A DNA stretch of 32,000 bases from Allobaculum fili. Its GTDB lineage: Bacteria; Bacillota_I; Bacilli_A; Erysipelotrichales; Erysipelotrichaceae. Below, one piece after another: positions 538-32,000 of this stretch (positions are counted from its first letter, which is position 1; each line of letters starts with the position of its first letter). The translations under genes were made by a program, and so were the position numbers. The notes under the pieces were generated by a model. That model saw nothing but the letters and a program-made list of their open reading frames with translations. It was not told where the DNA came from and did not search any database. The stretch spans positions 150,001 to 182,000 of the forward strand of contig NZ_JAHDSX010000001.1 of assembly GCF_020969955.1 (NCBI RefSeq), given 5' to 3'.

Positions 538-3492
538 CTATAAGGCGTGGGCACAGGCCTGCGAATGATTTTCCTGCTGCAGATAAAGGCTTGCTATTTC
601 ATGATGAATCAAAGACAGTTTGTCTTCCTTCAGGGGATGGAGAGTTTCCGGATCAAAGCGCATCCAGATGTTCAGAGCTTCTTTCCAGGCAATAAGACTG
701 TCTTCCGGACGGCTGAAATAATCGATTCGCGCAAGATCCATCCAGCTTTCTGCATAGTTTCTGTACGTGGTTTCATCCGGGTGGATCTGGATGGCCTGCG
801 CATGCAGATCGATCAGGAGCTGAAACACAGACCGTCGAAGCGCTTCATTTTTGGAATCCCATACGGCATCTCGCAGCAGATTCGTCATGTCCAGCCAGTC
901 TTCGAGCTGCGCGGGGAATAAATCCGTATGGGAGAGGTACTTCACGGCGCTTTGGCAGGCTTCCTCCATCGCCTGATCCGCTTTTTGGGGCGCACCGGCT
1001 TCCAGATAGCACAGCGCCAGATGGGCCAGAAGCGCCGTCGGATGGTGTCCCGGATAGTTTGCAATTTCCTGTTCAGAATGAATGCGGGTCAGACTGACCC
1101 CTGTTTCCAGACTTCGGCAGGCGGCGTCGCAGTCTTCGAGCTTTTTAAGAATCCGTCGGGCGGCATCCCACAGCACTTCCTCAAATTGAACTGGAATACC
1201 GCTTTCCAGAAGCGAAGCAGGAAGAGACTGCGCTCGACTGGCGCCAATATGATCCAGAGCCAGATCGATCCAGGAGAGCGCGGTGTACAGCTTTCCCCGC
1301 TCTTCATAAAACTGAGCGGCATTGTACATATCCACCGCATTTTTCGGGATTCGAAGCGGCTTCCTCTCTTCTTTGATCTGTCCGTTTTTTACGGAATACT
1401 TCGGCCCGGTTAGTTTCTGAAGATGATTTAAAGCCCTCTGATAGCAGTGATCGGCCGAAAGCCAGTCGTTATTTTGTTCGCTGATCTCTGCACGGCAGAA
1501 CAGGCAGGCGATCATCTCCTTTCTGGCTTCCTGGGATTCCTTGAGCCGGACAAGAAGAGAATGCATAGCTGCATCCACGCATTTTATGGCTTCATCCGTC
1601 CGGTTCAGTTTACGGTACGCCTCGGCCATGGTTCTGCGAACAGCGGCCTGCAGAATATCCTGCTCCAGAGTAACTGCATCCGCTTCGAGAAAGCGCGAAT
1701 ACGTTTCGATGCAAAGACGGTACTGACCGGCCGCATATTCCTGGTCTGCCTGATTTAACAGCCTCTGATTTTCGATGGAACGCGCCTGCGTCTGAGAAAG
1801 AAAGCCGCTTTTGTCCGCCAGTTTCTCCATCTGCTTGCAAAGCTCGCTTTCTTTTCTGAAGTCCTGCTGTTCCTGGGCCAGCCGGACTTCCAGCTCCAGA
1901 ATCTGGTATTTCCAGCCGCAGGCAAGATCGGTCAGTTCCCTGGGAACCTTTTTCATCCAGCTCCAGAACTGCGCAATCGTCTTTTTTGCATCCTCTGGAC
2001 GGCTGTCGTTGATCTGAAGATTGGCAAGATAAAAAAAGCTGAAAAGAACGGTCGATAAAAGCGCCTCGTTGATCCCCTTCAGGGGACTGGCCATCTGAAT
2101 CAGATCGTCCAGGACAAGCATCGCGCCTTCCTTCTGGCCGGCATGAAGGCAGCAGTTTGCCATGGACGCATAAAAAAGGATTTTGAACGGAGTACTGTCG
2201 TATGGGCTGAGATCGTACGGAATATCTTCCAGGAGAAGAAGAATCGGATGCAGCACGCTGGCACACGTCGTGTTGAGTTCTTCAAACCAGCCCAGACGGG
2301 TCAGCGTGTTCAGATAGCGGATTGTGATGTCAAGCAGACGCTCAATCGTTTCCGTGGAGGGCTGGTCTTTGAAGGATTGGATCGTCTTTGCAAAATAACG
2401 TTTTAAAAACTCAACGCCTTTGCGCGGATCGACCGGAACGCCGTCTCCGTACAGGTAAATATCGGAAAGAACGAGAAGCGCCTGGTCTACTCCCTTTTCG
2501 GCCGCCTGATTCAGAAGCGGAATGGCGCGAGCGGGATTGCGTTTCGTGTCGACGCCTCTCAGATAGGCAAGGCCCAGATAGAAAAGCTTCTGGGGATTCT
2601 GCGGTTCTTGGCTCTGTGTTTTCGGATTTTCGAAAAGGGACTGTAAAGATTCACGAAGATCATCCGACTGGAGGGAAAAAACCGGCGGAAAGCCGGCATA
2701 CAGCAGCTTCAGGACATCTGTATTCGCTGGTTCCATCTGGACAGGAATGATTTTTTTGCGGTACTGGACGGCAGCCGGATATTCATATTCGCTTATATAA
2801 TTTTTTTCTTCGAGTTTTGGCGTTACGAGCAGCGTGATCAGCTCGCTTCGTTTCATCTGATCGAAAATCTGCTGGCTGAAATCTTCTCCCGGCATCAGAA
2901 AGTCGTCGTACCAGACCCCGACATCCCATGTGCATTCCAGAGACTGAACGAAATCCAGAAAATCCTGCGCATAAGCCCAGTCTTTCTTACGGTAGCTGAC
3001 AAAAATATACGAATGAAACGAGCTTCTTATTTTCTCGATCAGCGGGGGTTCCAGAATCACGGACTGAAGATATGACCGCATACGGCTTTCAAAATTCTGT
3101 CGTTTCAGAAAATCCGGCTGAAAATCCAGATACTGAAGATCTCCGAACAGCTGGGAATAGGCAGACAGATCGATACTGTCCAGAAGGATGGGAAGAAGAA
3201 GAACTTTACTTTCGCGCAGCGCCCAGATCAGTTTAAGCGTATTTTCCTGTTCAGAGCGAAGCAGTCGGGAAGAAACCGCAATGACGGCCAGCGTGAATTC
3301 CTGCAGCAGGCGCAGATCCTCTTCACTCCAGAGGGCATTTTCTGGATCCGGCGCAAGAATCAGGCAGTTGACCTGGTCGCGGATGGTTTGAATAATCTGT
3401 GAATCTGTCGAACGATCCCCTGAGGGGATAAACAGAACTTTGCTGAGTCCGCTTTCCTGAACGGTATTTTCTGGATAATATTTGAATTTCAT
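538..3492 (-). CDS. TIR-domain protein with Sel1-like repeats and a long TPR-like helical array (984 aa)
   Basis: RBS GGAAAGGAGA lies 4 nt before ATG 3492. Residues 161-275 (nt 2668-3012) carry bacterial TIR hallmarks: YIFVSYRKKD, VGVWYDD, PGEDFSQQIFDQMKRSELITLLVTP and ISEYEYPAAV (candidate catalytic Glu). Residues ~301-365 hold two Sel1-like repeats (LFYLGLAYLRGVDTKRNPARAIPLLNQAAEKG; ALLVLSDIYLYGDGVPVDPRKGVEFLKR). Residues ~370-984 are helical-repeat (TPR-like). Residues 17-125 form an alpha/beta-looking region with no motifs I recognise. Confidence 0.8.
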   Translation of the reverse strand: MKFKYYPENTVQESGLSKVLFIPSGDRSTDSQIIQTIRDQVNCLILAPDPENALWSEEDLRLLQEFTLAVIAVSSRLLRSEQENTLKLIWALRESKVLLLPILLDSIDLSAYSQLFGDLQYLDFQPDFLKRQNFESRMRSYLQSVILEPPLIEKIRSSFHSYIFVSYRKKDWAYAQDFLDFVQSLECTWDVGVWYDDFLMPGEDFSQQIFDQMKRSELITLLVTPKLEEKNYISEYEYPAAVQYRKKIIPVQMEPANTDVLKLLYAGFPPVFSLQSDDLRESLQSLFENPKTQSQEPQNPQKLFYLGLAYLRGVDTKRNPARAIPLLNQAAEKGVDQALLVLSDIYLYGDGVPVDPRKGVEFLKRYFAKTIQSFKDQPSTETIERLLDITIRYLNTLTRLGWFEELNTTCASVLHPILLLLEDIPYDLSPYDSTPFKILFYASMANCCLHAGQKEGAMLVLDDLIQMASPLKGINEALLSTVLFSFFYLANLQINDSRPEDAKKTIAQFWSWMKKVPRELTDLACGWKYQILELEVRLAQEQQDFRKESELCKQMEKLADKSGFLSQTQARSIENQRLLNQADQEYAAGQYRLCIETYSRFLEADAVTLEQDILQAAVRRTMAEAYRKLNRTDEAIKCVDAAMHSLLVRLKESQEARKEMIACLFCRAEISEQNNDWLSADHCYQRALNHLQKLTGPKYSVKNGQIKEERKPLRIPKNAVDMYNAAQFYEERGKLYTALSWIDLALDHIGASRAQSLPASLLESGIPVQFEEVLWDAARRILKKLEDCDAACRSLETGVSLTRIHSEQEIANYPGHHPTALLAHLALCYLEAGAPQKADQAMEEACQSAVKYLSHTDLFPAQLEDWLDMTNLLRDAVWDSKNEALRRSVFQLLIDLHAQAIQIHPDETTYRNYAESWMDLARIDYFSRPEDSLIAWKEALNIWMRFDPETLHPLKEDKLSLIHHEIASLYLQQENHSQACAHAL

Positions 3493-5260: not shown

Positions 5261-5438
5261 TTTCTCCTCGGGTTCTGCTTTTTCCTTTTGATGAGATATG
5301 GCTTTTTATCCGCGGGAGAAACGAACCGGCAGATCCGCAAACGCGCCGTTTCAAAGCGGACTCGAATGTGGCTTTTCAGATTCGCCATCCTGAATTGGAA
5401 TTTGTCATCCGGAAAAAGGAAAAAGAAAGGAGGATGTC

Positions 5439-6317
5439 ATGATTGTTTCCGCAAGCTGCCGAACCGATATTCCCGCGTTTTACACGCCCTGGCTGCTCAA
5501 CCGCCTGGAGGAGGGCTTTGTGGACGTGCGCAATCCGTTTTATCCCAAACGGGTTTCGCGCATTTACTTTGAAGACGCGGATGCCTGGATGTTCTGTACG
5601 AAAAATCCGCTGCCGCTTATTCCGTATCTGGACCGGTTCAAGCAGCCGATCTTAATGGATGTGACGATTACGCCGTATAAAAAGGATCTGGAACCGGCGG
5701 TACCCGATAAAACGAAAATTATTGAAGCGGTCCGCTTCATGGGCGAAAAGCTGGGAAAGGATCATGTGTCGGTTCGCTACGATCCGATTTTGCTGAATCC
5801 AACGTATACGGTGGACTATCACATTCGGGCTTTTGAGCGGCTCTGTTCTCTGCTCGAAGGCGCGGTGGAGACGATTTCCATTTCCTTTCTCGACGACTAC
5901 AAAAACGTCCGCCGTCATGCCGGCGAACTGAATGCGCACGAACCGAGTGAAGCCGAATTAAAAGCTATTGGCGAAGCGTTCGCAAAATGCGCTGCGGATC
6001 ATGGCATTCCCGTTTTCACCTGCAACGAAAAGCAGATTCTAGCCCCGTTCGGCGTGCCTTCCGGCGCCTGCTTTCCTATGGAACTCGCGCTGGCCTGGAC
6101 CGGCCGCAAGTTTCGAAAGTGGAAAGCGCGCGACTGCGGCTGCGTCGAAATGGCGGATCTTGGCGTCTACAACACGTGTGCGCACCTTTGCCGCTACTGC
6201 TATGCCAACTTTGATGAAAAGCAGATCGCCCAAAACCGGCGTCTTCATGATCCCAGTTCGACGATGCTGGTGGGACATCTGGAAGCCGACGATGAAATCA
6301 TTCGCCGCAAACGATAA
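5439..6317 (+). CDS. DUF1848-family protein with a C-terminal CX3CX2C cysteine triad (292 aa)
   Basis: RBS AAAGGAGG lies 5 nt before ATG 5439. The segments IVSASCRTDIPAFYTPW, VRYDPI, DCGCVEMADLGVYNTCAHLCRYCYAN match my memory of the DUF1848 consensus. Cysteines C247-x3-C251-x2-C254 are at nt 6177-6200. Confidence 0.75.
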   Translation: MIVSASCRTDIPAFYTPWLLNRLEEGFVDVRNPFYPKRVSRIYFEDADAWMFCTKNPLPLIPYLDRFKQPILMDVTITPYKKDLEPAVPDKTKIIEAVRFMGEKLGKDHVSVRYDPILLNPTYTVDYHIRAFERLCSLLEGAVETISISFLDDYKNVRRHAGELNAHEPSEAELKAIGEAFAKCAADHGIPVFTCNEKQILAPFGVPSGACFPMELALAWTGRKFRKWKARDCGCVEMADLGVYNTCAHLCRYCYANFDEKQIAQNRRLHDPSSTMLVGHLEADDEIIRRKR

Positions 6318-6349
6318 ACTGCACGTAAAATTAAACCAGATCGAATCCA

Positions 6350-6372
6350 AATCGGATTTTCGAAATCCGATT
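6350..6372 (+). other. Intercistronic AT-rich hairpin without a U-tract, between the DUF1848 and helicase genes
   Basis: aatcggattt (6350-6359) pairs perfectly with aaatccgatt (6363-6372) across a 3-nt loop. It is followed by ccggtcgatcc, so it is not a canonical terminator. Confidence 0.4.
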
Positions 6373-6412
6373 CCGGTCGATCCTTAGCCAGACCGGCGGA
6401 AAGGAGAGAAGC

Positions 6413-9400
6413 ATGTCATCCAGCCCACTTTTTGAACAGGCACTCGACGAACTCGAACGTCTTCAGAAACTGTTAGAAGACCATCATCTGCCTTCTCAGA
6501 TTGCCGCCGACCTGCAGCTTGAGATTGACCAGAGAACAAAACGCCGCAAGGATGCAGCTGCTGTTTCTTCCAGAACGCCGGAGCGTACGCGGCGAGCCGC
6601 CGCTCCGGAACCGCCTCAAACGCATCCGACGCGGCCAGTTTCCCCAAAACCACAATCGGAAGAAGCGTTTTTCGCCCAGCGTGAACCGCAGCCGCCGGTC
6701 CACAATGAACAGGCTGTTGAGCACAAACGGGCTGCTTTTCAGCCCCGGGCGGAATTTTCAAAGCCGTCCGATTCGCAGACACAGTCGGAGACGGCTGCTT
6801 CCAGATCCGATGAGCCGGTCGAATCGCCCGTAAAACGAGGAAAACCTTCCGTTTCTTCCCCTTCCGCTTCACCGAAAAATCCGCTGGCGTATGCGGATCT
6901 GCTTGGCATCGCGTTTCCTTCCAATGGAGAAACGTATTTTGTCCGTTCCCAGAAAGGCTTCTTTTATCAGCCCTGTCCGATCCGTCTGCGGCCGGGCTGC
7001 CCGTACTTTCAGAAAAACGCCAAGCCGGAATGCAAAACCTGTACCGTTCGGCCCGCTATTTCGCTTGGACGAAGAGAAGTGCTCAATCATCTTCACGGAC
7101 AAAGTGAAATCGGGCTTTCGCCGTTAAGCCAGGATGGTCACATTGCCTACGCCTGTATCACGATCGAAAGCGGCCAGGGGCAGAAGGCTGCGCTTGAAGT
7201 TCAGAGGGCAGCTAAAGCGATTGGACTCGATGTTCTTTGCGAAGAACGCAAGGAAGACGGTGTTTTGTCGTGGCGCATCTGGTTTTTACTCGCGATGCCG
7301 GTGGACGCCTCCCGGGTTTCCCGCTTTTTGCGCGCGTTTCTGATCAACGGGTTTGCCAAAGGTGAGCTCAGGGATCTGCGCTTTCTCGATCAGACGTTCC
7401 CGCGTATTTTTGTCAAGGAACAGCCCAAGGAGCGGGGAATGGCGTTGCCGCTTCCGCTGTTTGGCTGGCTCGATGAAGCGCTGCGAAAACAGGGAAGAGA
7501 CGCCGATCGGTATTCCATTCTGATCGATGAAAAAGGCGAAGAAATTGCCGATCCGTTTGCGCAGATACAGTCGATTACCCGTGTGGAACCGGCCCAGATG
7601 GAGGCGCAGATTCGCGAATGCACCTCGCGCAAGCGGGAAGAACTGTTTGCGGGCGATCCGAAAAGCGAGCCGGACACGATGGAGTCCATGCGCCTGATCG
7701 CCGCGGACGACGATCCGTTTGTATTTGCGCCTTTGCAGGAATCCGGCGTGATCGAAGTGATCGAAAAAGGACGGATCTGGGTGTGCGCGGATGCGCTGCC
7801 CGCTTCTGTACAAAATCAGATTCTGGCGATGGGCAGCTACTGGAATCCGGCGTATCGCTCGCAGAAAAACAAGTTTGCGACCGGACCGCGCATCGTTTCG
7901 CTGGCTAGACGCGAAGCGCATGGACCGCAATCCGGTTCACAAAATGCCGATTCTGAAAATACTGAAAACAAAAACAATACGGGACTGGGCACGCGCTGGA
8001 TTTCGCTGCCCCGTCATTTAAAAGCGCCGCTTCTTTATCGGCTTTCTCAGGCTGGAGCGACAGTGGATCTGCAGGACTGGGAAAGCGAAGGGCAGTCGGT
8101 TCCGATGGAATTTAACGGCGAACTTCGTCCGGAACAGGTGTCGCTGGCTTCCGCTCTGTATCAGAAAGGGAGCGGCATTCTGGAAGCGGCAACGGGGACC
8201 GGAAAAACGGTCATCGGCGCAGCGCTGATCGCGCAGATTTCGAGAAGCACGCTGATTCTGGTCAATTCCAAGGAAATCTTGCAGGGCTGGGTCAGTTCGC
8301 TGAACCGCTTCCTGCATTTTTCCAGTCCGGAATGGGAAAACTGGAAGGCGCCTTCGAAAAACTATCCAGGAAAAATCGGGGTGCTGCAGGGCGCTACGCG
8401 TTCGCTTTCTGGGCGCGTGGATGTGGCCATGGTGCCTTCGCTGGTCCAGAAGGAAAATCTCGAAGAACTGCTTTCCGGCTATGGCGTCGTCTTTGTGGAT
8501 GAATGCCATCATGCCGGCTCGCCGTCCTATCAGAAAGTACTCGACGCGCTGCAGGCCAAACGCGTATACGGTCTGAGCGCGACGCCAAAGCGGACTGACG
8601 GCCTTTCGACAAGCATGTTCTGGCAACTGGGTGAAATCGCGGCTTCGTTCAGTTCGAAAGATCAGATGGCCAGTCAGACGTTCCACCGTCTGATCTGTCC
8701 GCGCTTGACACCCTTTGCGGGAAGCGACGCGGAAAACAATGACTTTACCCGTCTGGTGCAGGAAGCGGCTTCGCATCCGCTGCGCAATGAAATGATCGTG
8801 CAGGATATCCGCGAAGCGCTCGATAACGGGCGAACCGTTCTGGTGCTGACGCGCTTTATTGAACATGCCCATACGCTCGCTCGTCTGCTGGCCCCCGGAG
8901 ACGATACCGAACTGTTCGTCTACGCGGGTGATCCCAAACGCAAGCAGGAAAATACAAGACGCCTGCGCGAACTCGAAGATCCCAAAGTACGAAAAGATAA
9001 GAAAGTCGTGCTGATCGGCACGTATGCGAGCATCAGTGAAGGCTTTGACTTTCCGCTGCTCGATACACTCATGCTTGCGCTGCCGATTCGTTCGCAGATC
9101 ACCATTTCACAGTCGATCGGTCGAATTCACCGCCAGACGCGAAACAAGCAGATTGCCATCGTCTACGACTATGCCGACGTGCAGAACCGCATGCTGGAAA
9201 GCATGTATCAGGCAAGACTGAAAGAGTACGTCAATCAGGGCTATCAGATCGGCGAAGTACTCGATGAGCGAAAAGGCACGTCTTCGGGAAAGGTGTACCG
9301 GACAGAAGACTACATTTCAGCCTGTGTGCGCGATATCCGCCAGGCGAAAAAACGGGTGGCGCTCTGTATGCGCGCCTTTGAGGATGAGCAGCTGCAGACG

Positions 9401-9715
9401 CTGATCGATGTGGCCGGTCAGAAAGCGCTCGAAGGCGTTCGCTTTGATCTTTTTGTCGAAAACGCCTCCGATGAACAGGTACGCCGCATGCGCAATGCGG
9501 GTTTCCATGTTCATTTTCACGACCGCATCGTCGCGTGCTGTCTGATCGTGGATCAGGAAATTGTCTGGTACGGCAACGTGTTTTCTTCGCAGGCGGCCTC
9601 TTCCGGCATTGTGCGGATGGTGTCGAGAAAGGATGCCAACGAGCTGCTCGAAGCCAGACGCCGCGAAGAAATCCGGCAGCTCAGTCTCCAGCATGCTCAG
9701 GCTTCCCAGTCCTGA
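6413..9715 (+). CDS. Multidomain protein (1100 aa): disordered Pro-rich N-terminus, AEP (primase-polymerase)-like Cys-cluster domain, SF2 DEAD/DEAH (ResIII-type) helicase, and a C-terminal PLD-like module
   Basis: RBS AAAGGAGAGAAGC precedes the ATG. Helicase motifs: I ILEAATGTGKTV (nt 8186-8209 core), II VVFVDECHH (DECH at 8498-8509), III GLSATPKR, V/VI region GTYASISEGFDF and QSIGRIHRQ. Residues 158-355: YQPCPIRLRPGCPYFQKNAKPECKTC...HLHGQSEIGLSPL...AYACITIES...LSWRIWFLL...LDQTFPRIF...GMALPLPLFG. This resembles AEP-helicase fusions that I recall being labelled as conflict-system (TOTE) AEP in Pfam/NCBI; I have not verified that. Residues 962-1075 form a PLD-like fold candidate (FHVHFHDRIVACCLIVDQEIVWYGNVF). 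Confidence 0.75.
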   Translation: MSSSPLFEQALDELERLQKLLEDHHLPSQIAADLQLEIDQRTKRRKDAAAVSSRTPERTRRAAAPEPPQTHPTRPVSPKPQSEEAFFAQREPQPPVHNEQAVEHKRAAFQPRAEFSKPSDSQTQSETAASRSDEPVESPVKRGKPSVSSPSASPKNPLAYADLLGIAFPSNGETYFVRSQKGFFYQPCPIRLRPGCPYFQKNAKPECKTCTVRPAISLGRREVLNHLHGQSEIGLSPLSQDGHIAYACITIESGQGQKAALEVQRAAKAIGLDVLCEERKEDGVLSWRIWFLLAMPVDASRVSRFLRAFLINGFAKGELRDLRFLDQTFPRIFVKEQPKERGMALPLPLFGWLDEALRKQGRDADRYSILIDEKGEEIADPFAQIQSITRVEPAQMEAQIRECTSRKREELFAGDPKSEPDTMESMRLIAADDDPFVFAPLQESGVIEVIEKGRIWVCADALPASVQNQILAMGSYWNPAYRSQKNKFATGPRIVSLARREAHGPQSGSQNADSENTENKNNTGLGTRWISLPRHLKAPLLYRLSQAGATVDLQDWESEGQSVPMEFNGELRPEQVSLASALYQKGSGILEAATGTGKTVIGAALIAQISRSTLILVNSKEILQGWVSSLNRFLHFSSPEWENWKAPSKNYPGKIGVLQGATRSLSGRVDVAMVPSLVQKENLEELLSGYGVVFVDECHHAGSPSYQKVLDALQAKRVYGLSATPKRTDGLSTSMFWQLGEIAASFSSKDQMASQTFHRLICPRLTPFAGSDAENNDFTRLVQEAASHPLRNEMIVQDIREALDNGRTVLVLTRFIEHAHTLARLLAPGDDTELFVYAGDPKRKQENTRRLRELEDPKVRKDKKVVLIGTYASISEGFDFPLLDTLMLALPIRSQITISQSIGRIHRQTRNKQIAIVYDYADVQNRMLESMYQARLKEYVNQGYQIGEVLDERKGTSSGKVYRTEDYISACVRDIRQAKKRVALCMRAFEDEQLQTLIDVAGQKALEGVRFDLFVENASDEQVRRMRNAGFHVHFHDRIVACCLIVDQEIVWYGNVFSSQAASSGIVRMVSRKDANELLEARRREEIRQLSLQHAQASQS

Positions 9716-9752: not shown

Positions 9753-9825
9753 AGAAGGGAAGTACGAAAGGCACGTTTGCCGGTCGATTTTGACGGCGTG
9801 ACCTTTGTCTTCCCTTCTTTTTCTT
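9753..9825 (+). terminator. Compound hairpin plus T-run terminator after the helicase gene
   Basis: agaagggaag..aaagg (9753-9771) pairs with cctttgtcttcccttct (9802-9818). An inner cacg...cgtg hairpin sits between the arms. The structure is followed by tttttctt. Confidence 0.5.
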
Positions 9826-9847: not shown

Positions 9848-9943
9848 GAAAGCGTCCTGTCCAGAGTCCGAGCACGCAGGCAAGCAAAGAGAAAACCGTG
9901 TTCATAAGAGCCCTGGACAGATTAAGTGGAGGAAATAAAACTA

Positions 9944-10813
9944 ATGGTTATTGATCTTGACGATATTGTGGATGCCATTCAGGGCGGAAGCAATTCGGTT
10001 GAGTATTATCTCAATACCCGTACGGGAGAAATCATCATGCGTGATGATCGTCTTTCCGTAAGAGAGCTCAACGACATCGATGATGAACTCGACAAAGTCT
10101 ACGATTCCATTTTGCTGATCCCGACATCCCGCGATGCGGGCGACATCCGCATGATGCGTGAATTTACGTGGACACTCCCGGACGGTCAGGCCAAGGACGC
10201 GCTGACGACCGCTTTAGGCAACCGCAAAGGCATTTTCCAGCGTTTTCGCAACGCGCTGAACAGTTTCAACCTGCTCAACGACTGGTATGAATACGAAGAC
10301 GACCGCTACATGGAATTTGCACGCAACTGGTGCCGCGACAACGAAGTCGCTTTTGAAGAAGTCCCGAAAATTGTCTATCGCCGTGCGGTGCGCAGCGATG
10401 TGAAAACGATGGTTGAACTGCGCAAGAAAGAACTCGGTCTTGCGCCGGAGGACGATTCGTTCGATTTCGAACTCGACCGCTACTTTGCAGCGCAGATGCG
10501 AAACGGCGCGTTGTATGAAATTTTCGCCTGGTGGAAAAACCGTATCGTCGCGTGCGGCGCCATCGCCTGGGTCTTCACGCCGCCAACACCCGAACTGCCC
10601 GATGGCCGCAATGGCTATCTGTGCAACTTCTGGTGCGATGAAGAAGTAAAGGGAAACGGCTACGAAAAGGAAATTCTTTCCCGTCTGCTCGAAGAGGCAA
10701 AACGCCGCAAGCTGCCGGTTGTCCGCTCCTATGGACTGGATGCAGAACTCGTTGAATCCTTTGGCTTTAAGCCCGAAGACGATGTTCGCAAAGCCGTTCT
10801 GAAACTGAAATAG
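9944..10813 (+). CDS. UPF0158-like N-terminal domain fused to a GNAT N-acetyltransferase domain
   Basis: GGAGG at 9928-9932 lies 11 nt before ATG 9944; the ORF track starts it at GTG 9926. The N-terminus VIDLDDIVDAIQGGSNSVEYYLNTRTGEIIMRDD resembles UPF0158. The C-terminal half has a GNAT motif A-like segment, CDEEVKGNGYEKEILSRLLEEAKRRKL. Confidence 0.65.
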   Translation: MVIDLDDIVDAIQGGSNSVEYYLNTRTGEIIMRDDRLSVRELNDIDDELDKVYDSILLIPTSRDAGDIRMMREFTWTLPDGQAKDALTTALGNRKGIFQRFRNALNSFNLLNDWYEYEDDRYMEFARNWCRDNEVAFEEVPKIVYRRAVRSDVKTMVELRKKELGLAPEDDSFDFELDRYFAAQMRNGALYEIFAWWKNRIVACGAIAWVFTPPTPELPDGRNGYLCNFWCDEEVKGNGYEKEILSRLLEEAKRRKLPVVRSYGLDAELVESFGFKPEDDVRKAVLKLK

Positions 10814-10963: not shown

Positions 10964-11470
10964 TTATTCGTGAGAGTTGCAGCATCCGCCTTCGTGGTCA
11001 TGATCGTCGCCGTGGCAGCATCCGCCTTCGTGGTCATGATCGTCGCCGTGGCAGCATCCGCCTTCGTGGTCATGATCGTCGCCGTGGCAGCATCCGCCTT
11101 CGTGGTCATGATCGTCGCCGTGGCAGCATCCGCCTTCATGGTCGTGATCGTCACCGTGGCAGCATCCGCCTTCGTGGTCGTGATGGCCGCCGCATCCGCA
11201 TCCGCCGCCTTCGGCTGGCGCGAATACCATCAGTTCGCCGTTCTGCAGATCGACAAAAGCGTCATCGCAGTATTTGGCGGTATCTTCATCCATCAGCACT
11301 TTGATGCCGTTGATTTCCACCGGCTTGTCGCCTTCTTCGTAGCGAACCATCTGGAAAACGGGTGCTGCGGAGCAGCAGGTCTGATGAAGGGTAGCCATCA
11401 GTCCGTCTGCATGGTTTTCTTCCAGCATGGGTTTCAGCACGTTAGCGGCTGCATCTGTAATTGTTAACAT
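10964..11470 (-). CDS. HesB/IscA-like (A-type Fe-S carrier fold) protein with a repetitive Cys/His/Asp/Gly-rich C-terminal metal-binding tail (168 aa)
   Basis: RBS GGAGGCAGAAACAT precedes the ATG. The N-terminal ~90 aa (LTITDAAANVLKPMLEE...TCCSAAP...INGIKVLMDEDTAKY...GGGCGCGG) keeps the three-Cys layout of A-type carriers: one central Cys plus a C-terminal CGC. Residues ~95-168 are six GGCC-containing repeat units (consensus GGCCHGDDHDHE, the last truncated), ending in GGCCNSHE. Confidence 0.7.
   Translation of the reverse strand: MLTITDAAANVLKPMLEENHADGLMATLHQTCCSAAPVFQMVRYEEGDKPVEINGIKVLMDEDTAKYCDDAFVDLQNGELMVFAPAEGGGCGCGGHHDHEGGCCHGDDHDHEGGCCHGDDHDHEGGCCHGDDHDHEGGCCHGDDHDHEGGCCHGDDHDHEGGCCNSHE
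10979..11190. repeat. 36-bp in-frame tandem repeat, about 5.9 copies, inside the HesB-like gene
   Basis: The unit gcagcatccgccttcgtggtcatgatcgtcgccgtg is identical at 10979-11014, 11015-11050, 11051-11086 and 11087-11122. The copy at 11123-11158 has 3 substitutions, and a diverged partial copy follows. Confidence 0.95.
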
Positions 11471-11691
11471 ATGTTTCTGCCTCCATTTCTCCTCTATTTT
11501 AAAAGAGTTTCGGTTCAGGCGCTCGGTTTAGCCCTGTCTGTTTGAAATGTTTATAAGTCATAAAACAGAATGAGTGTCAAGAAATATTATTATGGGAATG
11601 TGGAATATTCTTACGAAATAAGGGGAAATACAGGCAAATGGGGTTCAGAAGGGGGTCTGGACGGTTAAGATGAAGGTGCGAGGTAATCTAT

Positions 11692-12222
11692 ATGAAACTG
11701 ATCACCCTCAGACAGCTTGAAGCACAGGCGCGCACCGGGGACGGAAAAGCCTGTCTGGCCTTGTACCAGGAGTATTCCAACAACACCCGGGATGAAAAAA
11801 CCGCCAGAAAGTGGCTGGATCTCGCTCTCGATTACGATGAGCCGAGAGCCCAGTTTCTCGAAGGCGTGTATTCGATGAAAGTCGGCGAAATTGCGCACGG
11901 CGTACAGTTTTTGAAGCTGGCCGCTTTTAACCGCAATACCGACGCCATGAATGTCCTGGCGATGTACTACCTGGGAAACATTCACGGAATCAGCCATACG
12001 GTCATTGATCTGGAGCTCGGGCTTGATTATCTCTATCAGGCCGCGAACGGCGGATGTCCGGATGCACAGATTGTTCTGGGAAAATGTTTTTATCTCGGAA
12101 AATGGGTAAGCCGCAACAAGTATCTTGCCCGCTACTGGATGGAAAAAGCCGCAAAGGCCAAAAGCCGGCTGGCCGCACGCATGCTCGAAGACATGCAGGC
12201 CGTCAGTGGCGCGCTCAACTGA
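11692..12222 (+). CDS. Sel1-like repeat (SLR/TPR family) protein, 176 aa
   Basis: RBS GAGGT lies 7 nt upstream. Repeated ~36-aa units carry the Sel1 signature, for example AQFLEGVYSMKVGEIAHGVQFLKLAAFNRNTDAMNVLAMYYL and DAQIVLGKCFYLGKWVSRNKYLARYWMEKAAKA. Confidence 0.75.
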   Translation: MKLITLRQLEAQARTGDGKACLALYQEYSNNTRDEKTARKWLDLALDYDEPRAQFLEGVYSMKVGEIAHGVQFLKLAAFNRNTDAMNVLAMYYLGNIHGISHTVIDLELGLDYLYQAANGGCPDAQIVLGKCFYLGKWVSRNKYLARYWMEKAAKAKSRLAARMLEDMQAVSGALN

Positions 12223-12248
12223 AAAAGCAGTGAATACCGTCTGAACCC

Positions 12249-12296
12249 CCGAAAAGCGAGACTTGATTTTTAAGTCGGCTTTTCGGCTTTTGTTTT
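12249..12296 (+). terminator. Intrinsic terminator after the Sel1-repeat gene
   Basis: ccgaaaagcgagactt (12249-12264) pairs with aagtcggcttttcgg (12272-12286) with one bulge. It is followed by cttttgtttt. Confidence 0.7.
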
Positions 12297-12438
12297 GGGA
12301 AAAAGGCGCCGACATAAGGGGATTGAATGTTGTTGAGAGCGCGTTCAGAACGATGGTTCCATACAATCCGCAGACGAAGGTGCAGACGAGAAAAAGGGAC
12401 GGTTCGGACGACTCTTTTCTGGTGCTATACTTCAAACC

Positions 12439-13158
12439 ATGAACGAAAATGAATCGCGCCGTCTTTTTCTGGACGGTATGAAAACTTCGATTCCCATTGC
12501 ACTTGGCTACTTCGCCGTCAGCTGCGCCTACGGCATGGCAGCCATTATACAGGGCATGACTGTAACCGAGGCGGCGATCACTTCGCTGATCAATCTGACG
12601 AGCGCCGGACAGTTTGCGGGAACGACGCTGATCTGCGCGGGCGCCAGCCTTTTTGAGCTCATTCTCACCGAGCTGATCATTAACGCGCGCTACTTTCTGA
12701 TGGCGATTTCGCTGGCGCAAAAATGCGGCGGATCGGTGCCTCTTGGCAAGCGTCTGCTCATGGCGTACGGGATTACCGATGAAATTTACGCGGCGGCCGT
12801 TTCCAAAAAAGGAAAGCTGTCCTTTGTCTGGTTCATGGGGCTGGTCGTCTTGCCGGTCATTGGCTGGACCGCGGGAACGATTGCCGGCGGACTGGCGAGC
12901 AGTCTGCTCCCTCAAAATCTGGTCAACGCGCTGGGACTGGCCATGTATGGCATGTTTATCGCCATTTTTGTACCGGCGGCCCGCAGGGAAAAAGCCGTGG
13001 CGATCTGTGTCCTGCTTTCCATTGCGCTCAGCTGTCTGTTTGCCTGGACGCCAGGTCTGAAAGAACTGTCCAACGGCTATGTGATCGTAATTGTGACCGT
13101 TCTGGCTTCCGCATTCTGTGCCTGGAAATTTCCAAGGAAGGAGGACGAACCGCAATGA
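12439..13158 (+). CDS. azlC: AzlC-family branched-chain amino acid exporter subunit
   Basis: Polytopic protein. The N-terminus FLDGMKTSIPIALGYFAVSCAYGMAA and the segment ELIINARYFLMAISL are typical of AzlC. It overlaps the following azlD by 4 nt (ATGA). An alternative start is the Met of MKTSIPIA. Confidence 0.8.
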   Translation: MNENESRRLFLDGMKTSIPIALGYFAVSCAYGMAAIIQGMTVTEAAITSLINLTSAGQFAGTTLICAGASLFELILTELIINARYFLMAISLAQKCGGSVPLGKRLLMAYGITDEIYAAAVSKKGKLSFVWFMGLVVLPVIGWTAGTIAGGLASSLLPQNLVNALGLAMYGMFIAIFVPAARREKAVAICVLLSIALSCLFAWTPGLKELSNGYVIVIVTVLASAFCAWKFPRKEDEPQ

Positions 13159-13469
13159 GAACGGCCGAGATGTATACCGGCATCGCGGTCATGGCACTGG
13201 TGACGTATGTCATTCGCATGATTCCGATGGCCCTGTTTTCCAGGCCGATTCGATCGCGCTTCTTTCAGTCCTTTCTCTACTACGTACCGTACGCCGTCCT
13301 TTCGGCGATGACCTTTCCCGGCGTTTTTGCGGGTTCGCTTTCGACTGCCGTCTGCTCGATCGGTGTACTGGCCGCAGTCATCAGCGCCTGGTTTGGCGGC
13401 AGCCTGCTTCAGGTGGCCTGCGCCGCAGCGGGCGCAGCCTGGATTGCGGGACTCGTTCCCGGTCTTTAA
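13155..13469 (+). CDS. azlD: AzlD-family small membrane subunit
   Basis: A 104-aa hydrophobic protein (IAVMALVTYVIRMIPMALF...), translationally coupled to azlC through an ATGA overlap. This is the canonical azlCD arrangement. Confidence 0.75.
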   Translation: MRTAEMYTGIAVMALVTYVIRMIPMALFSRPIRSRFFQSFLYYVPYAVLSAMTFPGVFAGSLSTAVCSIGVLAAVISAWFGGSLLQVACAAAGAAWIAGLVPGL

Positions 13470-30158: not shown

Positions 30159-32000
30159 CTATCCATTGGACGTTCCGCCGATTTCTTTTGGCAAAGAGGA
30201 CGATTGGGTGGAACTGGAAGAATCTGCGGAATCCGTCTGGGAATCCGGCTCTTTGAGCGGATTTTCCTGCTGCCAGAGCTCGACGCTGATCGTGTCGCCC
30301 TTATGCAGTGCCGTGCCTTCCGGGACGGACTGGGAGGCAACTTTGCCGGATCCGCTGACTTTGACCTGAATGTTGGTCAGCTGCCAGAAGGCAGTCACAT
30401 CCTTGAGCGTCCAGCCGGTCATATCCGGCATGACAATTTCATCGCCGTTCGTCATTAAGAGAACGCGGTCCTGCGAATTGACCGTGGAATCCGCTGCCGG
30501 ATACTGACCAATAACGGTATCGCCATTGCCCAGAATCAGGGATTTCAGACTCATTTCGCCCAGTTTCTGTTCGGCATAGCTGCGCGTGTGGCTGGTCAGC
30601 GTCGGCATGGTCCAGGACGTCCAGGTACTCTGATCTGCCGAATCGGACTGCTCATTGTCATAGTTGACGCCGGCAGTCTTCAGTGCGGCTTTCATGATGT
30701 CCTGGAAGTAGCTTCCCGAATAGTTCAGATAGTTCGGCCCCTGCATGCCCCAGAAAACCATCACCTGCGGATCGTCGGCAGGAGCGGCGCCCATGACGGT
30801 CGATGTGTAGTTGGTTTTGTCATAGCCGCCAATATTCGGATTGTAAATTTCACCCGTACCGGTCTTGATTGCAATGTCGATGCCGTCAATGGTGAATCGC
30901 TCACCGGTCATGCCGGCATCGCCGACATGGACCATGAGCTGACGGACTTTCTGTGCCGTTTGGGCTGAAATCGGATGGCCGGTGCATTCCGGAGAAAACT
31001 GTTCGATGACCTCGCCGGTATCGCTGTCGAGGATGGAGTCCACAAGATAGGGCTTCATCATTTTTCCATCGTTGAAGATCGCGGTATACGCCTGACAAAG
31101 TTCCAGGGCGGTCAGCGAAGAGGCCTGACCAAAACCAGTCGAAAGGTAGTCGGTGGCCTGCGAATAGTTGCCGACCCCGGTCAGTTCGTTAATGAACGGA
31201 GAGCCGACGGGCTTATACAGACCGAAGGCGTCGAGATAGCTGGCAAACGTCTGCTGATCGAGGTAATTGGTCAGCAATTCGCAAATCGCGATGTTAGAGG
31301 AGTGTGCAAGACCATCCGCAAAGGTCAGCGTACCGTAGTCTGTGCCCAGCGCATCGTTAATCGGCGGATACTGCGTTTCGGCCTGACTGCCGACGCGGGT
31401 GATCTTGTTTGTGACCGGATCGACGGTGTAGTAAAACGATCCGGCGCGATAGTAAGTATCTTCTGAGGGATAGACGCCGGAGTCGATGGCAGCTGCGTAG
31501 ACGAGCGGCTTTACAACGGAACCTGGCTCGAAGAGAGCCTGCGAAATGTTGTCGGCGGTTTCCGGCAGAACGAGGTGTGTGTTCTGGTCATAGGTCGGAT
31601 AGGAACCCCAGCCGAGAATCTTGCCGGTTTTTACCTCGACGACAATGGCCCACGCCTGGGAAGCATTGGATTCATTCATGGTTCTGGAAAGAACCGATTC
31701 GATCGTTTCCTGGAGGTTCAGATCAAGGGTCAGCTTGACTTTGTCGCCGTTTTCGCTTTCGCGCAAAATCGTTTCGCTTCCTGGCAGGATCTGGTCAGCC
31801 TGCGTAGCAGTGTACTGACGCAGCCCGTTCTTGCCGCTCAGATAGGCGTTCATCGTCTGTTCGAGCCCGAAGCGGCCGGTGATCGTACCGGTGTTGTCAT
31901 CGTTGGTCGCAAAGCCGATGGCCTGCGAAGAAAGCGGCGTGGTCGGATAGGTACGGCGAACGTCTTCGATAAAGCTCATGCCGGGAATTTTCATGGATTC
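30159..32000 (-). CDS. Class B penicillin-binding protein (transpeptidase; PBP2B/SpoVD/FtsI-like) with two C-terminal PASTA domains. The N-terminus lies beyond the right edge.
   Basis: Motifs: SxxK (GSVVKP), SxN (HSSN) and KTG (IKTGTG). Two PASTA-like units are present (MPTLTSHTRSYAEQKL...; MPDMTGWTLKDVTAFWQ...), followed by a Ser/Asp-rich tail. The frame stays open upstream of ATG 31994 to nt 32000, and that Met falls inside the dimerisation-domain region. Confidence 0.85.
   Translation of the reverse strand, partial: ESMKIPGMSFIEDVRRTYPTTPLSSQAIGFATNDDNTGTITGRFGLEQTMNAYLSGKNGLRQYTATQADQILPGSETILRESENGDKVKLTLDLNLQETIESVLSRTMNESNASQAWAIVVEVKTGKILGWGSYPTYDQNTHLVLPETADNISQALFEPGSVVKPLVYAAAIDSGVYPSEDTYYRAGSFYYTVDPVTNKITRVGSQAETQYPPINDALGTDYGTLTFADGLAHSSNIAICELLTNYLDQQTFASYLDAFGLYKPVGSPFINELTGVGNYSQATDYLSTGFGQASSLTALELCQAYTAIFNDGKMMKPYLVDSILDSDTGEVIEQFSPECTGHPISAQTAQKVRQLMVHVGDAGMTGERFTIDGIDIAIKTGTGEIYNPNIGGYDKTNYTSTVMGAAPADDPQVMVFWGMQGPNYLNYSGSYFQDIMKAALKTAGVNYDNEQSDSADQSTWTSWTMPTLTSHTRSYAEQKLGEMSLKSLILGNGDTVIGQYPAADSTVNSQDRVLLMTNGDEIVMPDMTGWTLKDVTAFWQLTNIQVKVSGSGKVASQSVPEGTALHKGDTISVELWQQENPLKEPDSQTDSADSSSSTQSSSLPKEIGGTSNG

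What the first reader, a model, noticed from the sequence alone, without database searches (positions are those of the whole stretch)
5439..9715. DUF1848 (CX3CX2C) gene coupled to a 1100-aa AEP-like / SF2 helicase / PLD-like protein: candidate uncharacterised nucleic-acid conflict module
Seen in the sequence:
- Two same-strand genes lie 95 nt apart. The only structure between them is an AT-rich 10-bp hairpin without a U-tract (6350-6372).
- A compound hairpin plus T-run follows the second gene (9753-9825), so the pair looks co-transcribed.
- Gene 1 is a DUF1848-type protein ending in C-x3-C-x2-C.
- Gene 2 contains, in order: a short helix, ~120 aa of Pro/Ser/Glu/Gln-rich sequence, a Cys-cluster alpha/beta domain, a linker, a complete SF2 helicase core (GTGKT, DECH, SAT, QSIGRIHR) and a ~110-aa C-terminal module.

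Established knowledge: ResIII-type SF2 helicases fused to primase-polymerase and PLD-type modules are characteristic of restriction, defence and conflict loci. DUF1848 has no assigned function.

Inference: this may be a helicase-driven DNA/RNA surveillance or processing system in which a DUF1848 Fe-S-type enzyme acts on the nucleic acid. No methyltransferase, integrase or known defence-system partner is adjacent, so it does not fit a classical R-M, DISARM or Druantia layout that I can recognise.
Basis: partly seen in the sequence, partly recalled or inferred. Interest (0 to 1): 0.75.

Follow-up and report, generated by a model that had tools for sequence, protein, structure and literature searches.

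The report
Eroded primase-helicase beside separable DUF1848 gene
The two genes are real and correctly described, but they are neighbours only in one small group of gut Erysipelotrichaceae and each occurs without the other there, so this is not a conserved two-gene conflict system; the large protein is a helicase whose primase-like and nuclease-like domains have lost their catalytic residues.

Summary
Gene 1 (5439-6317) is a full-length DUF1848. Gene 2 (6413-9715) has, in order, a Cys4 + AEP-TOTE domain, an XPB-like SF2 helicase and a PLD-fold C-terminal domain.

The proposed coupling does not hold as a family trait:
- No locus outside a narrow clade had the partner gene: 0 of 160 loci of the gene-2 family, and 0 of 110 DUF1848 loci.
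- Within that Erysipelotrichaceae clade, four lineages carry the pair. Four carry the helicase alone, with no DUF1848 remnant in the three searched for one. One carries DUF1848 alone.
- All of these sit in the same syntenic chromosomal block.

The wider gene-2 family is a stand-alone PrimPol-helicase-PLD protein, the non-CRISPR "CAPP-helicase" type. It occurs on plasmids, on prophage-like contigs and in variable regions, and its primase motifs are intact.

In the window's clade the DxD and His primase motifs and the PLD HKD motif are lost. The helicase core stays conserved (58-70% identity) while the AEP domain has drifted to 20-31%.

DUF1848 is a widespread single gene in housekeeping contexts. 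Its model gives weak matches to TIM-barrel folds, the best-superposing being spore photoproduct lyase. Its radical-SAM-type CX3CX2C motif lies at the C-terminus.

Verdict: an ordinary, lineage-specific gene neighbourhood. Gene 2 is a new, catalytically eroded member of a known family.

The parts
5426..5434 (+). Shine-Dalgarno-like AAAGGAGGA upstream of gene 1
   Evidence: Read directly from the sequence.
5439..6317 (+). Gene 1: DUF1848 protein of 292 aa, predicted alpha/beta fold with weak TIM-barrel-like matches
   Evidence: PF08902 E 1.9e-81, full length. AF2 model pLDDT 95. The best-superposing PDB match is spore photoproduct lyase 4fhc (TM 0.45, prob 0.99; rank 25 by E-value, E 0.011).
6177..6200 (+). 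Codons for C247-x3-C251-x2-C254 (NTCAHLCRYCYAN), a radical-SAM-type cluster motif near the C-terminus
   Evidence: Invariant in 40 homologues. Weak Radical_SAM PF04055 hit at aa 243-262 against model positions 3-20, E 0.086.
6350..6372 (+). Intergenic 10-bp AT-rich hairpin without a U-tract (extends imperfectly to 6339-6382)
   Evidence: Present. Folding of the intergenic RNA is not beyond chance (z -1.1), and the hairpin is absent from orthologous intergenic regions in L002, L004 and L202.
6413..9715 (+). Gene 2: 1100-aa multidomain helicase of the AEP-TOTE / CAPP-helicase family
6413..6568 (+). N-terminal helical hairpin (aa 1-52)
   Evidence: AF2 helices 5-23 and 32-52, pLDDT about 90.
6569..6871 (+). 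Disordered P/A/S/R/E-rich linker (aa 53-153)
   Evidence: pLDDT below 50; composition.
6881..7612 (+). Cys4 zinc-binding element (C188, C196, C207, C210) plus an AEP-fold domain that lacks its catalytic residues (aa 157-400)
   Evidence: PF22548 at 60.6 bits. Family profile hits the CAPP structures 7nqd/7nqf at E 2e-26. Motif I DFD reads ITIE and motif II GAH reads SWR; the Cys4 is invariant.
7730..8092 (+). Folded middle domain preceding the helicase (aa ~440-560), possibly equivalent to the XPB N-terminal domain
   Evidence: pLDDT about 90. Foldseek aligns about 520 columns, more than the 380-residue helicase core, to 437-aa XPB chains. The equivalence is an inference.
8093..9232 (+). XPB-like SF2 helicase core (aa 561-940) with intact motifs I, II, III and VI
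   Evidence: ResIII E 8e-24. G597, K598, T599, D696, E697, H699, T724, Q900, G903, R904 and R907 are invariant. XPB/XPBII are the top sequence and fold hits.
9281..9622 (+). PLD-fold C-terminal domain without the HKD motif (aa 957-1070)
   Evidence: Family profile hits Zucchini 4ggj at E 2e-4. 13 of 41 relatives hit PLDc_2, best 9e-11. P0144 and P0155 keep HxK(x)4D..GSxN; the window reads RIVACCLIVD..GN.
9753..9825 (+). Compound hairpin plus T-run: likely intrinsic terminator after gene 2
   Evidence: MFE -41.9 kcal/mol, z -3.6, 0 of 200 shuffles.
9926..10813 (+). UPF0158-GNAT gene, the more constant downstream neighbour of the helicase in this clade
   Evidence: Pfam. Present after the helicase in the window, L001, L002, L004, L200, L202 and L288, at 68-75% identity.

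Best explanation
These are two separable genes that lie side by side, and are probably co-transcribed, in a vertically inherited chromosomal block of an uncultured Erysipelotrichaceae lineage. They are not a conserved two-gene system.

Gene 2:
- It descends from a widespread, usually stand-alone family: an active PrimPol (AEP-TOTE/CAPP type), an XPB-like SF2 helicase and a PLD-fold domain. That family moves on plasmids, prophage-like elements and variable regions.
- In this clade the primase-polymerase site (DxD, His) and the PLD HKD site are both lost. Only the ATPase/translocase is constrained.
- The protein therefore most likely works as an ATP-driven DNA translocase or duplex opener. The Zn-ribbon/dead-AEP and dead-PLD domains would serve as nucleic-acid-binding modules rather than catalysts (inferred).

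Gene 1:
- It is an independent Fe-S enzyme with a radical-SAM-type CX3CX2C motif placed at the C-terminus, and the best-superposing fold match is spore photoproduct lyase.
- It is found as a single gene in core chromosomal contexts, once directly beside a uracil-DNA-glycosylase-family gene.
- It most likely acts on DNA or nucleotides on its own (inferred).
For: Domain identities.

Loss of catalytic motifs:
- AEP motifs are lost in the window and in P0124-P0132 but intact in the wider family; the Cys4 is invariant.
- HKD is retained in only a few relatives.
- Within the clade the helicase core is 58-70% identical, against 20-31% for Zn+AEP.

Adjacency:
- 0 of 80 genome loci.
- 0 of 80 viral-collection loci of the helicase family and 0 of 30 viral-collection DUF1848 loci.
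- 0 of 80 metagenome DUF1848 loci.
- The wider family has no conserved neighbour at all.

Clade table:
- Pair present in the window/L001, L002, L004 and L201/L202.
- Helicase alone in L087, L088, L200 and L288; no DUF1848 remnant in L087, L088 or L200 (L288 was not searched).
- DUF1848 alone in L005.
- A neighbour-joining tree of helicase cores interleaves the pair-bearing and pair-lacking lineages.

Synteny and vertical inheritance: flanking genes are 55-75% identical across these loci.

DUF1848 contexts elsewhere: RadC, MreC/D, PolA and Mur ligase, and UDG 23 nt downstream in Ileibacterium.

DUF1848 fold and motif.

Literature: non-CRISPR CAPP homologues most often carry a helicase domain and lie in mobile elements (PMC8211822).
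Against: - The pair has stayed on the same strand, with gaps of only 48-95 nt and no terminator between the genes, in four lineages that have diverged to 36-47% (gene 2) and 67-70% (DUF1848) identity. That fits an operon that matters in those lineages.
- A DUF1848 family is a recognised accessory of a candidate defence reverse transcriptase, UG25 (PADLOC RTasDUF1848 at 3.8e-30; PMC9226505).
- TIR-domain genes recur near the locus.
- Adjacency was tested only within 6-8 kb. Genome-wide co-occurrence was not tested.
- The genome scan pattern could not match the window's own clade, so GTDB members of that clade were not sampled.
- The radical-SAM assignment rests on weak scores.
Confidence: 0.65

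Rival explanations
1. Lineage-specific two-gene system. After losing its own AEP and PLD catalysis, the helicase uses the co-transcribed DUF1848 radical-SAM-like enzyme as a trans-acting effector on DNA or RNA that it tracks along. The role could be defence or repair.
For: - Same-strand pair with short gaps in four diverged lineages.
- The pairing occurs only in the clade whose AEP is inactivated.
- DUF1848 is an accessory gene of the UG25 reverse transcriptases.
- A terminator follows gene 2, with none between the genes.
Against: - Four clade lineages keep a full-length helicase with intact motifs but no adjacent DUF1848, and one keeps DUF1848 alone; three of the four were searched and hold no DUF1848 remnant.
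- The DUF1848 orthologues in the pair are ordinary 292-aa members with no added interaction module.
- No adjacency in 270 loci outside the clade.
Confidence: 0.15
2. DNA-repair neighbourhood. DUF1848 would be a lesion-reversing enzyme like spore photoproduct lyase, and the XPB-like helicase a damage-scanning or fork-remodelling translocase. They would share regulation because both serve genome maintenance.
For: - The helicase's best sequence and fold matches are XPB, RadD and UvsW.
- The DUF1848 model's best-superposing match is spore photoproduct lyase.
- DUF1848 lies next to a UDG-family gene in Ileibacterium, and near RadC and PolA elsewhere.
- The chromosomal context is core and syntenic.
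Against: - The helicase family is patchy, mobile and fast-evolving, unlike housekeeping repair genes.
- NCBIfam XPB and RadD scores are far below their cut-offs.
- The spore photoproduct lyase similarity is weak (TM 0.45).
- RadC, PolA and MreCD neighbours may be plain synteny within one lineage.
Confidence: 0.15
3. Gene 2 is a decaying relic of a once-mobile defence or replication gene that is heading towards pseudogenisation. Its adjacency to DUF1848 is accidental.
For: - Two catalytic sites are lost.
- Gene 2 is 36-47% identical across relatives while its flanking genes are 55-75%.
- The comparison with the 99% twin shows 11 non-synonymous against 7 synonymous differences.
Against: - The ORF is intact at 973-1174 aa in every lineage seen.
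- All helicase motifs are invariant and the helicase core is 58-70% conserved.
- The Cys4 is invariant and AF2 confidence is high in every domain.
Confidence: 0.05

Closest known systems
Non-CRISPR CAPP_A 'CAPP-helicase' proteins (Zabrady et al. 2021, PMC8211822); Pfam AEP-TOTE PF22548-containing helicases
   Same: - The AEP domain family is the same. PF22548 is hit by all 41 relatives, and the family profile matches the MpCAPP structures 7nqd/7nqf at E 2e-26.
- The AEP-then-helicase order is the same.
- Relatives occur outside CRISPR loci, on mobile elements.
   Different: - The window protein and its clade lack motif I (DxD) and the motif II His, so they are not expected to prime or polymerise.
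- They are vertically inherited in a syntenic chromosomal block.
TOTE conflict systems (TPR, OB, TBP, Effector; Aravind, Iyer and Burroughs 2022, as cited in PMC12458937)
   Same: The AEP domain carries the Pfam name of the TOTE effector AEP.
   Different: - No TPR-OB/cold-shock gene or TATA-binding-protein gene lies beside the gene, either in the window or in 80 family loci.
- The only TPR protein nearby is a TIR-Sel1-TPR gene on the opposite strand, two genes away.
Archaeal XPB-Bax1 helicase-nuclease machine and TFIIH XPB
   Same: - The helicase core and the preceding domain superpose on XPB (Foldseek E 1e-19, TM up to 0.67 normalised to the target).
- The sequence profile gives E 8e-32 to XPBII.
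- In both, a helicase is joined to a nuclease-derived module.
   Different: - The nuclease-like module here is a fused PLD fold without HKD, not a separate Bax1.
- There is an extra N-terminal AEP-fold domain.
- NCBIfam XPB scores 48.9 against a cut-off of 610.
SauUSI-type Type IV restriction enzymes (PLD nuclease + SF2 helicase; PDB 7clg)
   Same: An SF2 helicase is combined with a PLD-family domain. The PADLOC mREase_IV hit is 5e-17 and the profile hit to 7clg is 1.7e-27.
   Different: - The domain order is reversed.
- The PLD lacks its catalytic HxK.
- There is no target-recognition domain.
- The matches cover only the helicase part.
UG25 candidate defence reverse transcriptase with a DUF1848 accessory gene (PMC9226505; PADLOC RTasDUF1848)
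   Same: Gene 1 matches the PADLOC DUF1848 accessory model over its full length (3.8e-30).
   Different: No reverse transcriptase or methyltransferase-RT fusion is present in the window.
Spore photoproduct lyase / radical-SAM superfamily
   Same: - A C-x3-C-x2-C motif followed by Y-A-N.
- Weak TIM-barrel-like fold matches.
- 4fhc superposes best on the model.
   Different: - The motif lies at the C-terminus instead of after the first strand, which implies circular permutation.
- Pfam Radical_SAM scores 13.5 bits against a cut-off of 29.5.
- TM is only 0.45.
- Five further invariant cysteines suggest an additional cluster.

Membership tests
DUF1848 (PF08902) | Full-length match above the Pfam gathering score | tested here: met
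   274.2 bits against 30.5, covering aa 2-256 of model positions 1-262.
Radical-SAM superfamily (gene 1) | CX3CX2C cluster motif | tested here: met
   C247, C251 and C254 are invariant in 40 homologues.
Radical-SAM superfamily (gene 1) | Match to Radical_SAM PF04055 above its cut-off, with the motif at the N-terminal end of the barrel | tested here: not met
   13.5 bits against 29.5, covering the motif only, and located at aa 243-262 of 292.
Radical-SAM superfamily (gene 1) | Partial TIM-barrel fold like known members | tested here: inconclusive
AEP-TOTE (PF22548) | Pfam match above the gathering score | tested here: met
   60.6 bits against 27, aa 199-397. 41 of 41 relatives match.
Catalytically active AEP / PrimPol | Motif I DxD (metal binding) | tested here: not met
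   The family has DFD; the window has ITIE; clade relatives have FEFV, ITLK and IRLR.
Catalytically active AEP / PrimPol | Motif II SGxGxH (nucleotide binding) | tested here: not met
   The family has RSGxGAHxW; the window has DGVLSWRIW. The His is replaced throughout P0124-P0132.
Catalytically active AEP / PrimPol | Motif III Asp | tested here: met
   D326 is at least 90% conserved and present in the window (FLDQTFP).
TOTE conflict system | Neighbouring TPR-OB (cold-shock) and TBP genes | tested here: not met
   No such Pfam hits in the window's ORFs. No conserved neighbour in 80 family loci.
CRISPR-associated PrimPol (CAPP) | cas genes or a CRISPR array in the operon | tested here: not met
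   No cas Pfam hits and no spaced repeat array.
SF2 helicase (ResIII / XPB-like) | Motifs I (GxGKT), II (DExH), III (SAT) and VI (QxxGRxxR) | tested here: met
   All are present and invariant in 41 sequences. ResIII scores 84.8 bits against 22.5.
PLD superfamily nuclease | HxK(x)4D...GSxN catalytic motif | tested here: not met
   The window reads RIVACCLIVDQEIVWYGNV. Only a few relatives (P0144, P0155) keep HQK.
PLD superfamily nuclease | PLD fold or profile similarity | tested here: inconclusive
   The window alone hits PLDc_2 at E 0.044. At family level, 13 of 41 relatives hit PLDc_2 (best 9e-11) and the profile hits Zucchini 4ggj at 2e-4.
Known defence system in PADLOC-DB v2 | Full-length match of the components to one system's models | tested here: not met
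   Only domain-level hits: PbeA, mREase_IV and PrimPol for gene 2, and RTasDUF1848 for gene 1 without its reverse transcriptase.
   0 of 160 helicase-family loci and 0 of 110 DUF1848 loci outside the clade. Within the clade, four lineages have the pair, four the helicase alone and one DUF1848 alone.
   The gap is 95 nt with no terminator-like site between the genes and a strong one after gene 2. RT-PCR is needed.

The most novel reading that the evidence does not exclude
In this Erysipelotrichaceae clade, an XPB-like helicase has lost both of its own catalytic domains (primase-polymerase and PLD nuclease). It may have recruited the upstream, co-transcribed DUF1848 as its effector. DUF1848 would be a circularly permuted radical-SAM enzyme resembling spore photoproduct lyase. 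Together they would form a helicase-guided radical-SAM system that modifies or repairs DNA, a type not described before.
Probability: 0.1. Interest if true: 0.7.

Novelty: new member of a known kind. Interest (0 to 1): 0.28.

Why it matters
- It removes a plausible-looking but unsupported candidate defence system from the list.
- It shows that apparent operon coupling should be tested in sister lineages as well as across families.
- It documents a clear case in which a mobile PrimPol-helicase-PLD protein was fixed in a host chromosome and kept only its motor. Its two enzymatic domains survive as folded, fast-drifting pseudo-enzyme modules. This is a useful example for studies of how conflict proteins are domesticated.
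- It gives a first, weak structural lead for DUF1848: a C-terminal radical-SAM-type motif, a best-superposing fold match to spore photoproduct lyase, and a UDG-family neighbour in one genus. The family is large and has no assigned function.

Tried and rejected
- The word-indexed homologue search with gene 2 returned only its 99% twin and two helicases, because the candidate cap filled up. The exhaustive representative search was needed.
- The genome scan pattern [ML][VI][IL][VFC]DECHH cannot match the window's VVFVDECHH, so GTDB genomes of the window's own clade were not sampled. Clade members were reached through exact-protein look-ups instead.
- TOTE membership was rejected: no TPR-OB or TBP partners.
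- A CAPP/CRISPR context was rejected: no cas genes and no array.
- A SauUSI-like Type IV restriction enzyme was rejected: no HKD, and the matches cover only the helicase.
- No Rfam family or tRNA was found anywhere in the window.
- No sigma-70-like promoter lies between the genes.
- No DUF1848 remnants were found in the helicase-only loci L087, L088 and L200.
- PHROGs holds no DUF1848 family.
- No PDB sequence relative of DUF1848 was found.
- The Aravind 2022 review that defines TOTE is not held.
- No paper mentions PF08902 or IPR014998.
- The minus-strand ORF 11665-13155, first taken as a gene, is a shadow of AzlC/AzlD on the + strand.

Full report
**What is in the sequence**

Two + strand ORFs lie at 5439-6317 (292 aa) and 6413-9715 (1100 aa). 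Each is preceded by a Shine-Dalgarno-like site. Folding of the spacer RNA is not beyond chance (z = -1.1), and the hairpin is missing from the orthologous spacers of related loci. After gene 2, a compound hairpin followed by a T-run (9753-9825) folds far better than shuffled sequence (z = -3.6, 0 of 200). The scan found no terminator-like site and no sigma-70-like promoter between the genes on the + strand. Co-transcription is therefore plausible but untested.

**Gene 1**

- It matches DUF1848 (PF08902) end to end (E 1.9e-81).
- It also matches the PADLOC model for the DUF1848 accessory protein of a candidate defence reverse transcriptase (3.8e-30). That corresponds to the UG25 association reported in PMC9226505.
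- Forty homologues share eight invariant cysteines. Three of them form C247-x3-C251-x2-C254 within NTCxHxCxYCYAN.
- Pfam's Radical_SAM model aligns only to this motif: aa 243-262 against model positions 3-20, E 0.086, below the cut-off.
- An AlphaFold2 model is very confident (pLDDT 95). Its PDB matches are weak and TIM-barrel-like. The best superposition is spore photoproduct lyase 4fhc (TM 0.45, rmsd 4.5 over 230 columns, prob 0.99, rank 25 by E-value).
- I infer a radical-SAM-like enzyme whose cluster loop has moved to the C-terminus. This inference is weakly supported.
- No PDB sequence relative, PHROG family or paper on the family beyond UG25 was found.

**Gene 2**

- Pfam gives AEP-TOTE PF22548 (aa 199-397, 60.6 bits against a cut-off of 27), ResIII (aa 570-727) and a weak Helicase_C.
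- The exhaustive search of 1.84 billion representatives found 608 clusters at E <= 1e-30. Many are 900-1100 aa with matches spanning the same regions.
- A profile of 41 of them hits XPBII (8e-32), SauUSI 7clg (1.7e-27), the CRISPR-associated PrimPol structures 7nqd/7nqf (2e-26, on the AEP region) and the PLD nuclease Zucchini 4ggj (2e-4, on the C-terminal region).
- All 41 hit AEP-TOTE (best 4e-98), and 13 hit PLDc_2 (best 9e-11).
- The PADLOC CAS-associated PrimPol model scores up to 3.7e-88.
- The whole-protein model (pLDDT 83) shows an N-terminal helical hairpin, a disordered stretch (aa 53-153), a confident Zn/AEP domain, a folded middle domain (about aa 440-560), the helicase, a PLD-like domain and a terminal helix.
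- Its best fold matches are XPB helicases (E 1e-19).
The "linker" is a folded domain, and the helicase is specifically XPB-like.

**Catalytic status**

- The wider family has canonical AEP motifs: DFD, RSGxGAHxW, and YDRxxPxQD...GNLIALPLQ.
- The window protein reads ITIE and DGVLSWRIW at motifs I and II. Its nine closest representatives (P0124-P0132) have all lost the motif II His, and most have lost DxD. The Cys4 element (C188, C196, C207, C210) is invariant in all 41.
- In the C-terminal domain, a few relatives (P0144, P0155) keep a perfect HxK(x)4D...GSxN. Most lack H and K, and so does the window (RIVACCLIVD...GN).
- All helicase motifs are invariant.
- Within the clade the helicase core is 58-70% identical to the window protein. 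The Zn+AEP region is only 20-31% identical, no better than to outgroup members.
- The motor is therefore under constraint, and the two former enzyme domains persist as folded but fast-drifting modules.

**Is the pair a module?**

From the helicase side:
- 80 GTDB genome loci of the family come from Lachnospiraceae, Oscillospiraceae, Bacteroidales, Coriobacteriia, Erysipelotrichales and even archaea. None has a DUF1848 within 6 kb.
- 80 IMG/VR loci have none either.
- Clustering of neighbouring ORFs found no partner in more than 8 of the 80 genome loci. The recurrent neighbours are AAA_14/DUF4143, AlbA_2-HATPase_c_4, YhcG and an integrase-like protein (by eye, not Pfam-scanned), as is typical of variable regions.
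- Plasmid copies (Bacillus cereus group, Acinetobacter and others) are annotated only as "DEAD/DEAH box helicase"; the one neighbourhood inspected (Bacillus wiedmannii p94918) shows it standing alone.

From the DUF1848 side:
- 30 IMG/VR loci and 80 metagenome loci (47 of them with at least 3 kb downstream) contain no AEP or helicase of this family.
- Their neighbours are housekeeping genes: RadC, MreC/D, PolA, Mur ligase and a thioredoxin-like protein.
- In Ileibacterium the next gene, 23 nt downstream, belongs to the UDG family.

**The clade that does have the pair**

Exact-protein look-ups gave this table:
- DUF1848 followed by the helicase: the window and its 99% twin L001, L002/L003, L004, and L201/L202.
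- Helicase without DUF1848: L087 (the window's closest relative, 52%), L088/L089, L200 and L288. A lenient search of L087, L088 and L200 found no DUF1848 remnant; L288 was not searched.
- DUF1848 without the helicase in the 1 kb of contig that follows it: L005.

A neighbour-joining tree of helicase cores interleaves the two states. The simplest history is an ancestral pair with at least two or three independent losses of DUF1848, while the helicase stayed intact.

All these loci share one syntenic block. Hexapep, Peptidase_S58, MatE and HAD lie upstream. UPF0158-GNAT, a small Fe-S_biosyn-like gene, a Sel1 protein, AzlC/AzlD, MFS, Metallophos and Bmp lie downstream.

Flanking genes are 55-75% identical across these loci, and DUF1848 is 64-70%. 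Gene 2 is only 36-47% identical.

The PBP at the window's end places the organism in the Erysipelotrichaceae. It is 53% identical to Faecalicoccus, 52% to Faecalibaculum and 51% to Ileibacterium. Its closest relatives, at 64-66%, are unnamed.

**Interpretation**

I conclude the following:
- Gene 2 is a chromosomally fixed, catalytically eroded member of the stand-alone PrimPol-helicase-PLD family. Zabrady et al. describe this architecture as the most common non-CRISPR CAPP type and place it on mobile elements (PMC8211822).
- Gene 1 is an independent Fe-S enzyme.
- The most likely activity of gene 2 is ATP-driven DNA translocation or duplex opening. The dead AEP/Zn and PLD folds would act as nucleic-acid-binding modules. 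This step is inferred, not shown.

Three things keep a lineage-specific functional link alive at about 15%:
- The pair has persisted with short gaps in four diverged lineages.
- DUF1848 has a precedent as a UG25 accessory.
- TIR-domain genes recur near the locus.

A shared DNA-repair role is about equally likely. It would fit the XPB-like helicase, the best fold match of DUF1848 to spore photoproduct lyase, and the UDG neighbour in Ileibacterium.

**Limits**

- Adjacency was tested, not genome-wide co-occurrence.
- The genome scan could not sample the window's own clade.
- The TOTE review could not be read. The TOTE definition is taken from PMC12458937.

Noticed in passing
window 538-3492 (- strand); L001 2956-7103; L004 13856-14830: A 984-aa TIR_2 + Sel1 + TPR protein lies two genes upstream on the opposite strand (TIR_2 E 4.7e-12; ThsB-like 3.6e-7). 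In the 99%-identical twin L001 the same region is called as two genes (800 aa and 541 aa), so a frame difference separates the strains. In L004 a different TIR_2 gene lies downstream of the block. This slot may collect conflict genes.
   Followed up: partly
window 9926-10813 (+); L002, L004, L200, L202, L288: A UPF0158-GNAT fusion gene follows the helicase in seven of the nine clade lineages seen (68-75% identity; it is absent in L088, and the L087 contig ends before the position). It is a more constant neighbour than DUF1848. One of the 41 family members carries a fused GNAT domain. Its function is unknown.
   Followed up: partly
L203/L204 7001-8531 (Ileibacterium): A DUF1848 that is 61% identical to the window's is followed 23 nt later by a UDG-superfamily (PF03167) gene. 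This echoes known pairings of radical-SAM and UDG-like genes and hints at a DNA-repair role for DUF1848.
   Followed up: no
L091 7075-7995, L092 421-1341, L093 7075-7995, L095 1989-2901, L097 7111-7995, L099 7089-7994: In six IMG/VR contigs a conserved protein of about 300 aa with no Pfam hit ends immediately before a DUF1848 gene (about 37-39% identical to the window's). Large serine recombinases lie nearby in at least five of the viral-collection DUF1848 contigs (L091, L093, L094, L095, L098). This may be a different, mobile DUF1848 pairing.
   Followed up: partly
window 10979-11206, inside ORF 10964-11470 (- strand): A 36-nt tandem repeat (6.3 copies, 94% matches) lies within the small Fe-S_biosyn-like gene and encodes a 12-aa repeat.
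   Followed up: no
window 11665-13155 (- strand) versus 11692-12222, 12439-13158 and 13155-13469 (+ strand): The long minus-strand ORF (496 aa, no Pfam hit) is a shadow ORF. The real genes are a Sel1 protein, AzlC and AzlD on the + strand, matching the synteny in L088 and L200.
   Followed up: yes
L005 and L200 (both from assembly GCA_029782595.1): A contig with DUF1848 alone and a contig with the helicase alone come from the same assembly, each near a contig end. They may be one genome in which inserted genes split the pair, or they may be two organisms.
   Followed up: no
window 30159-31994 (- strand): The PBP2B-like gene runs off the window. The listed ATG start is internal, since the full-length relative P0273 is 828 aa.
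   Followed up: no
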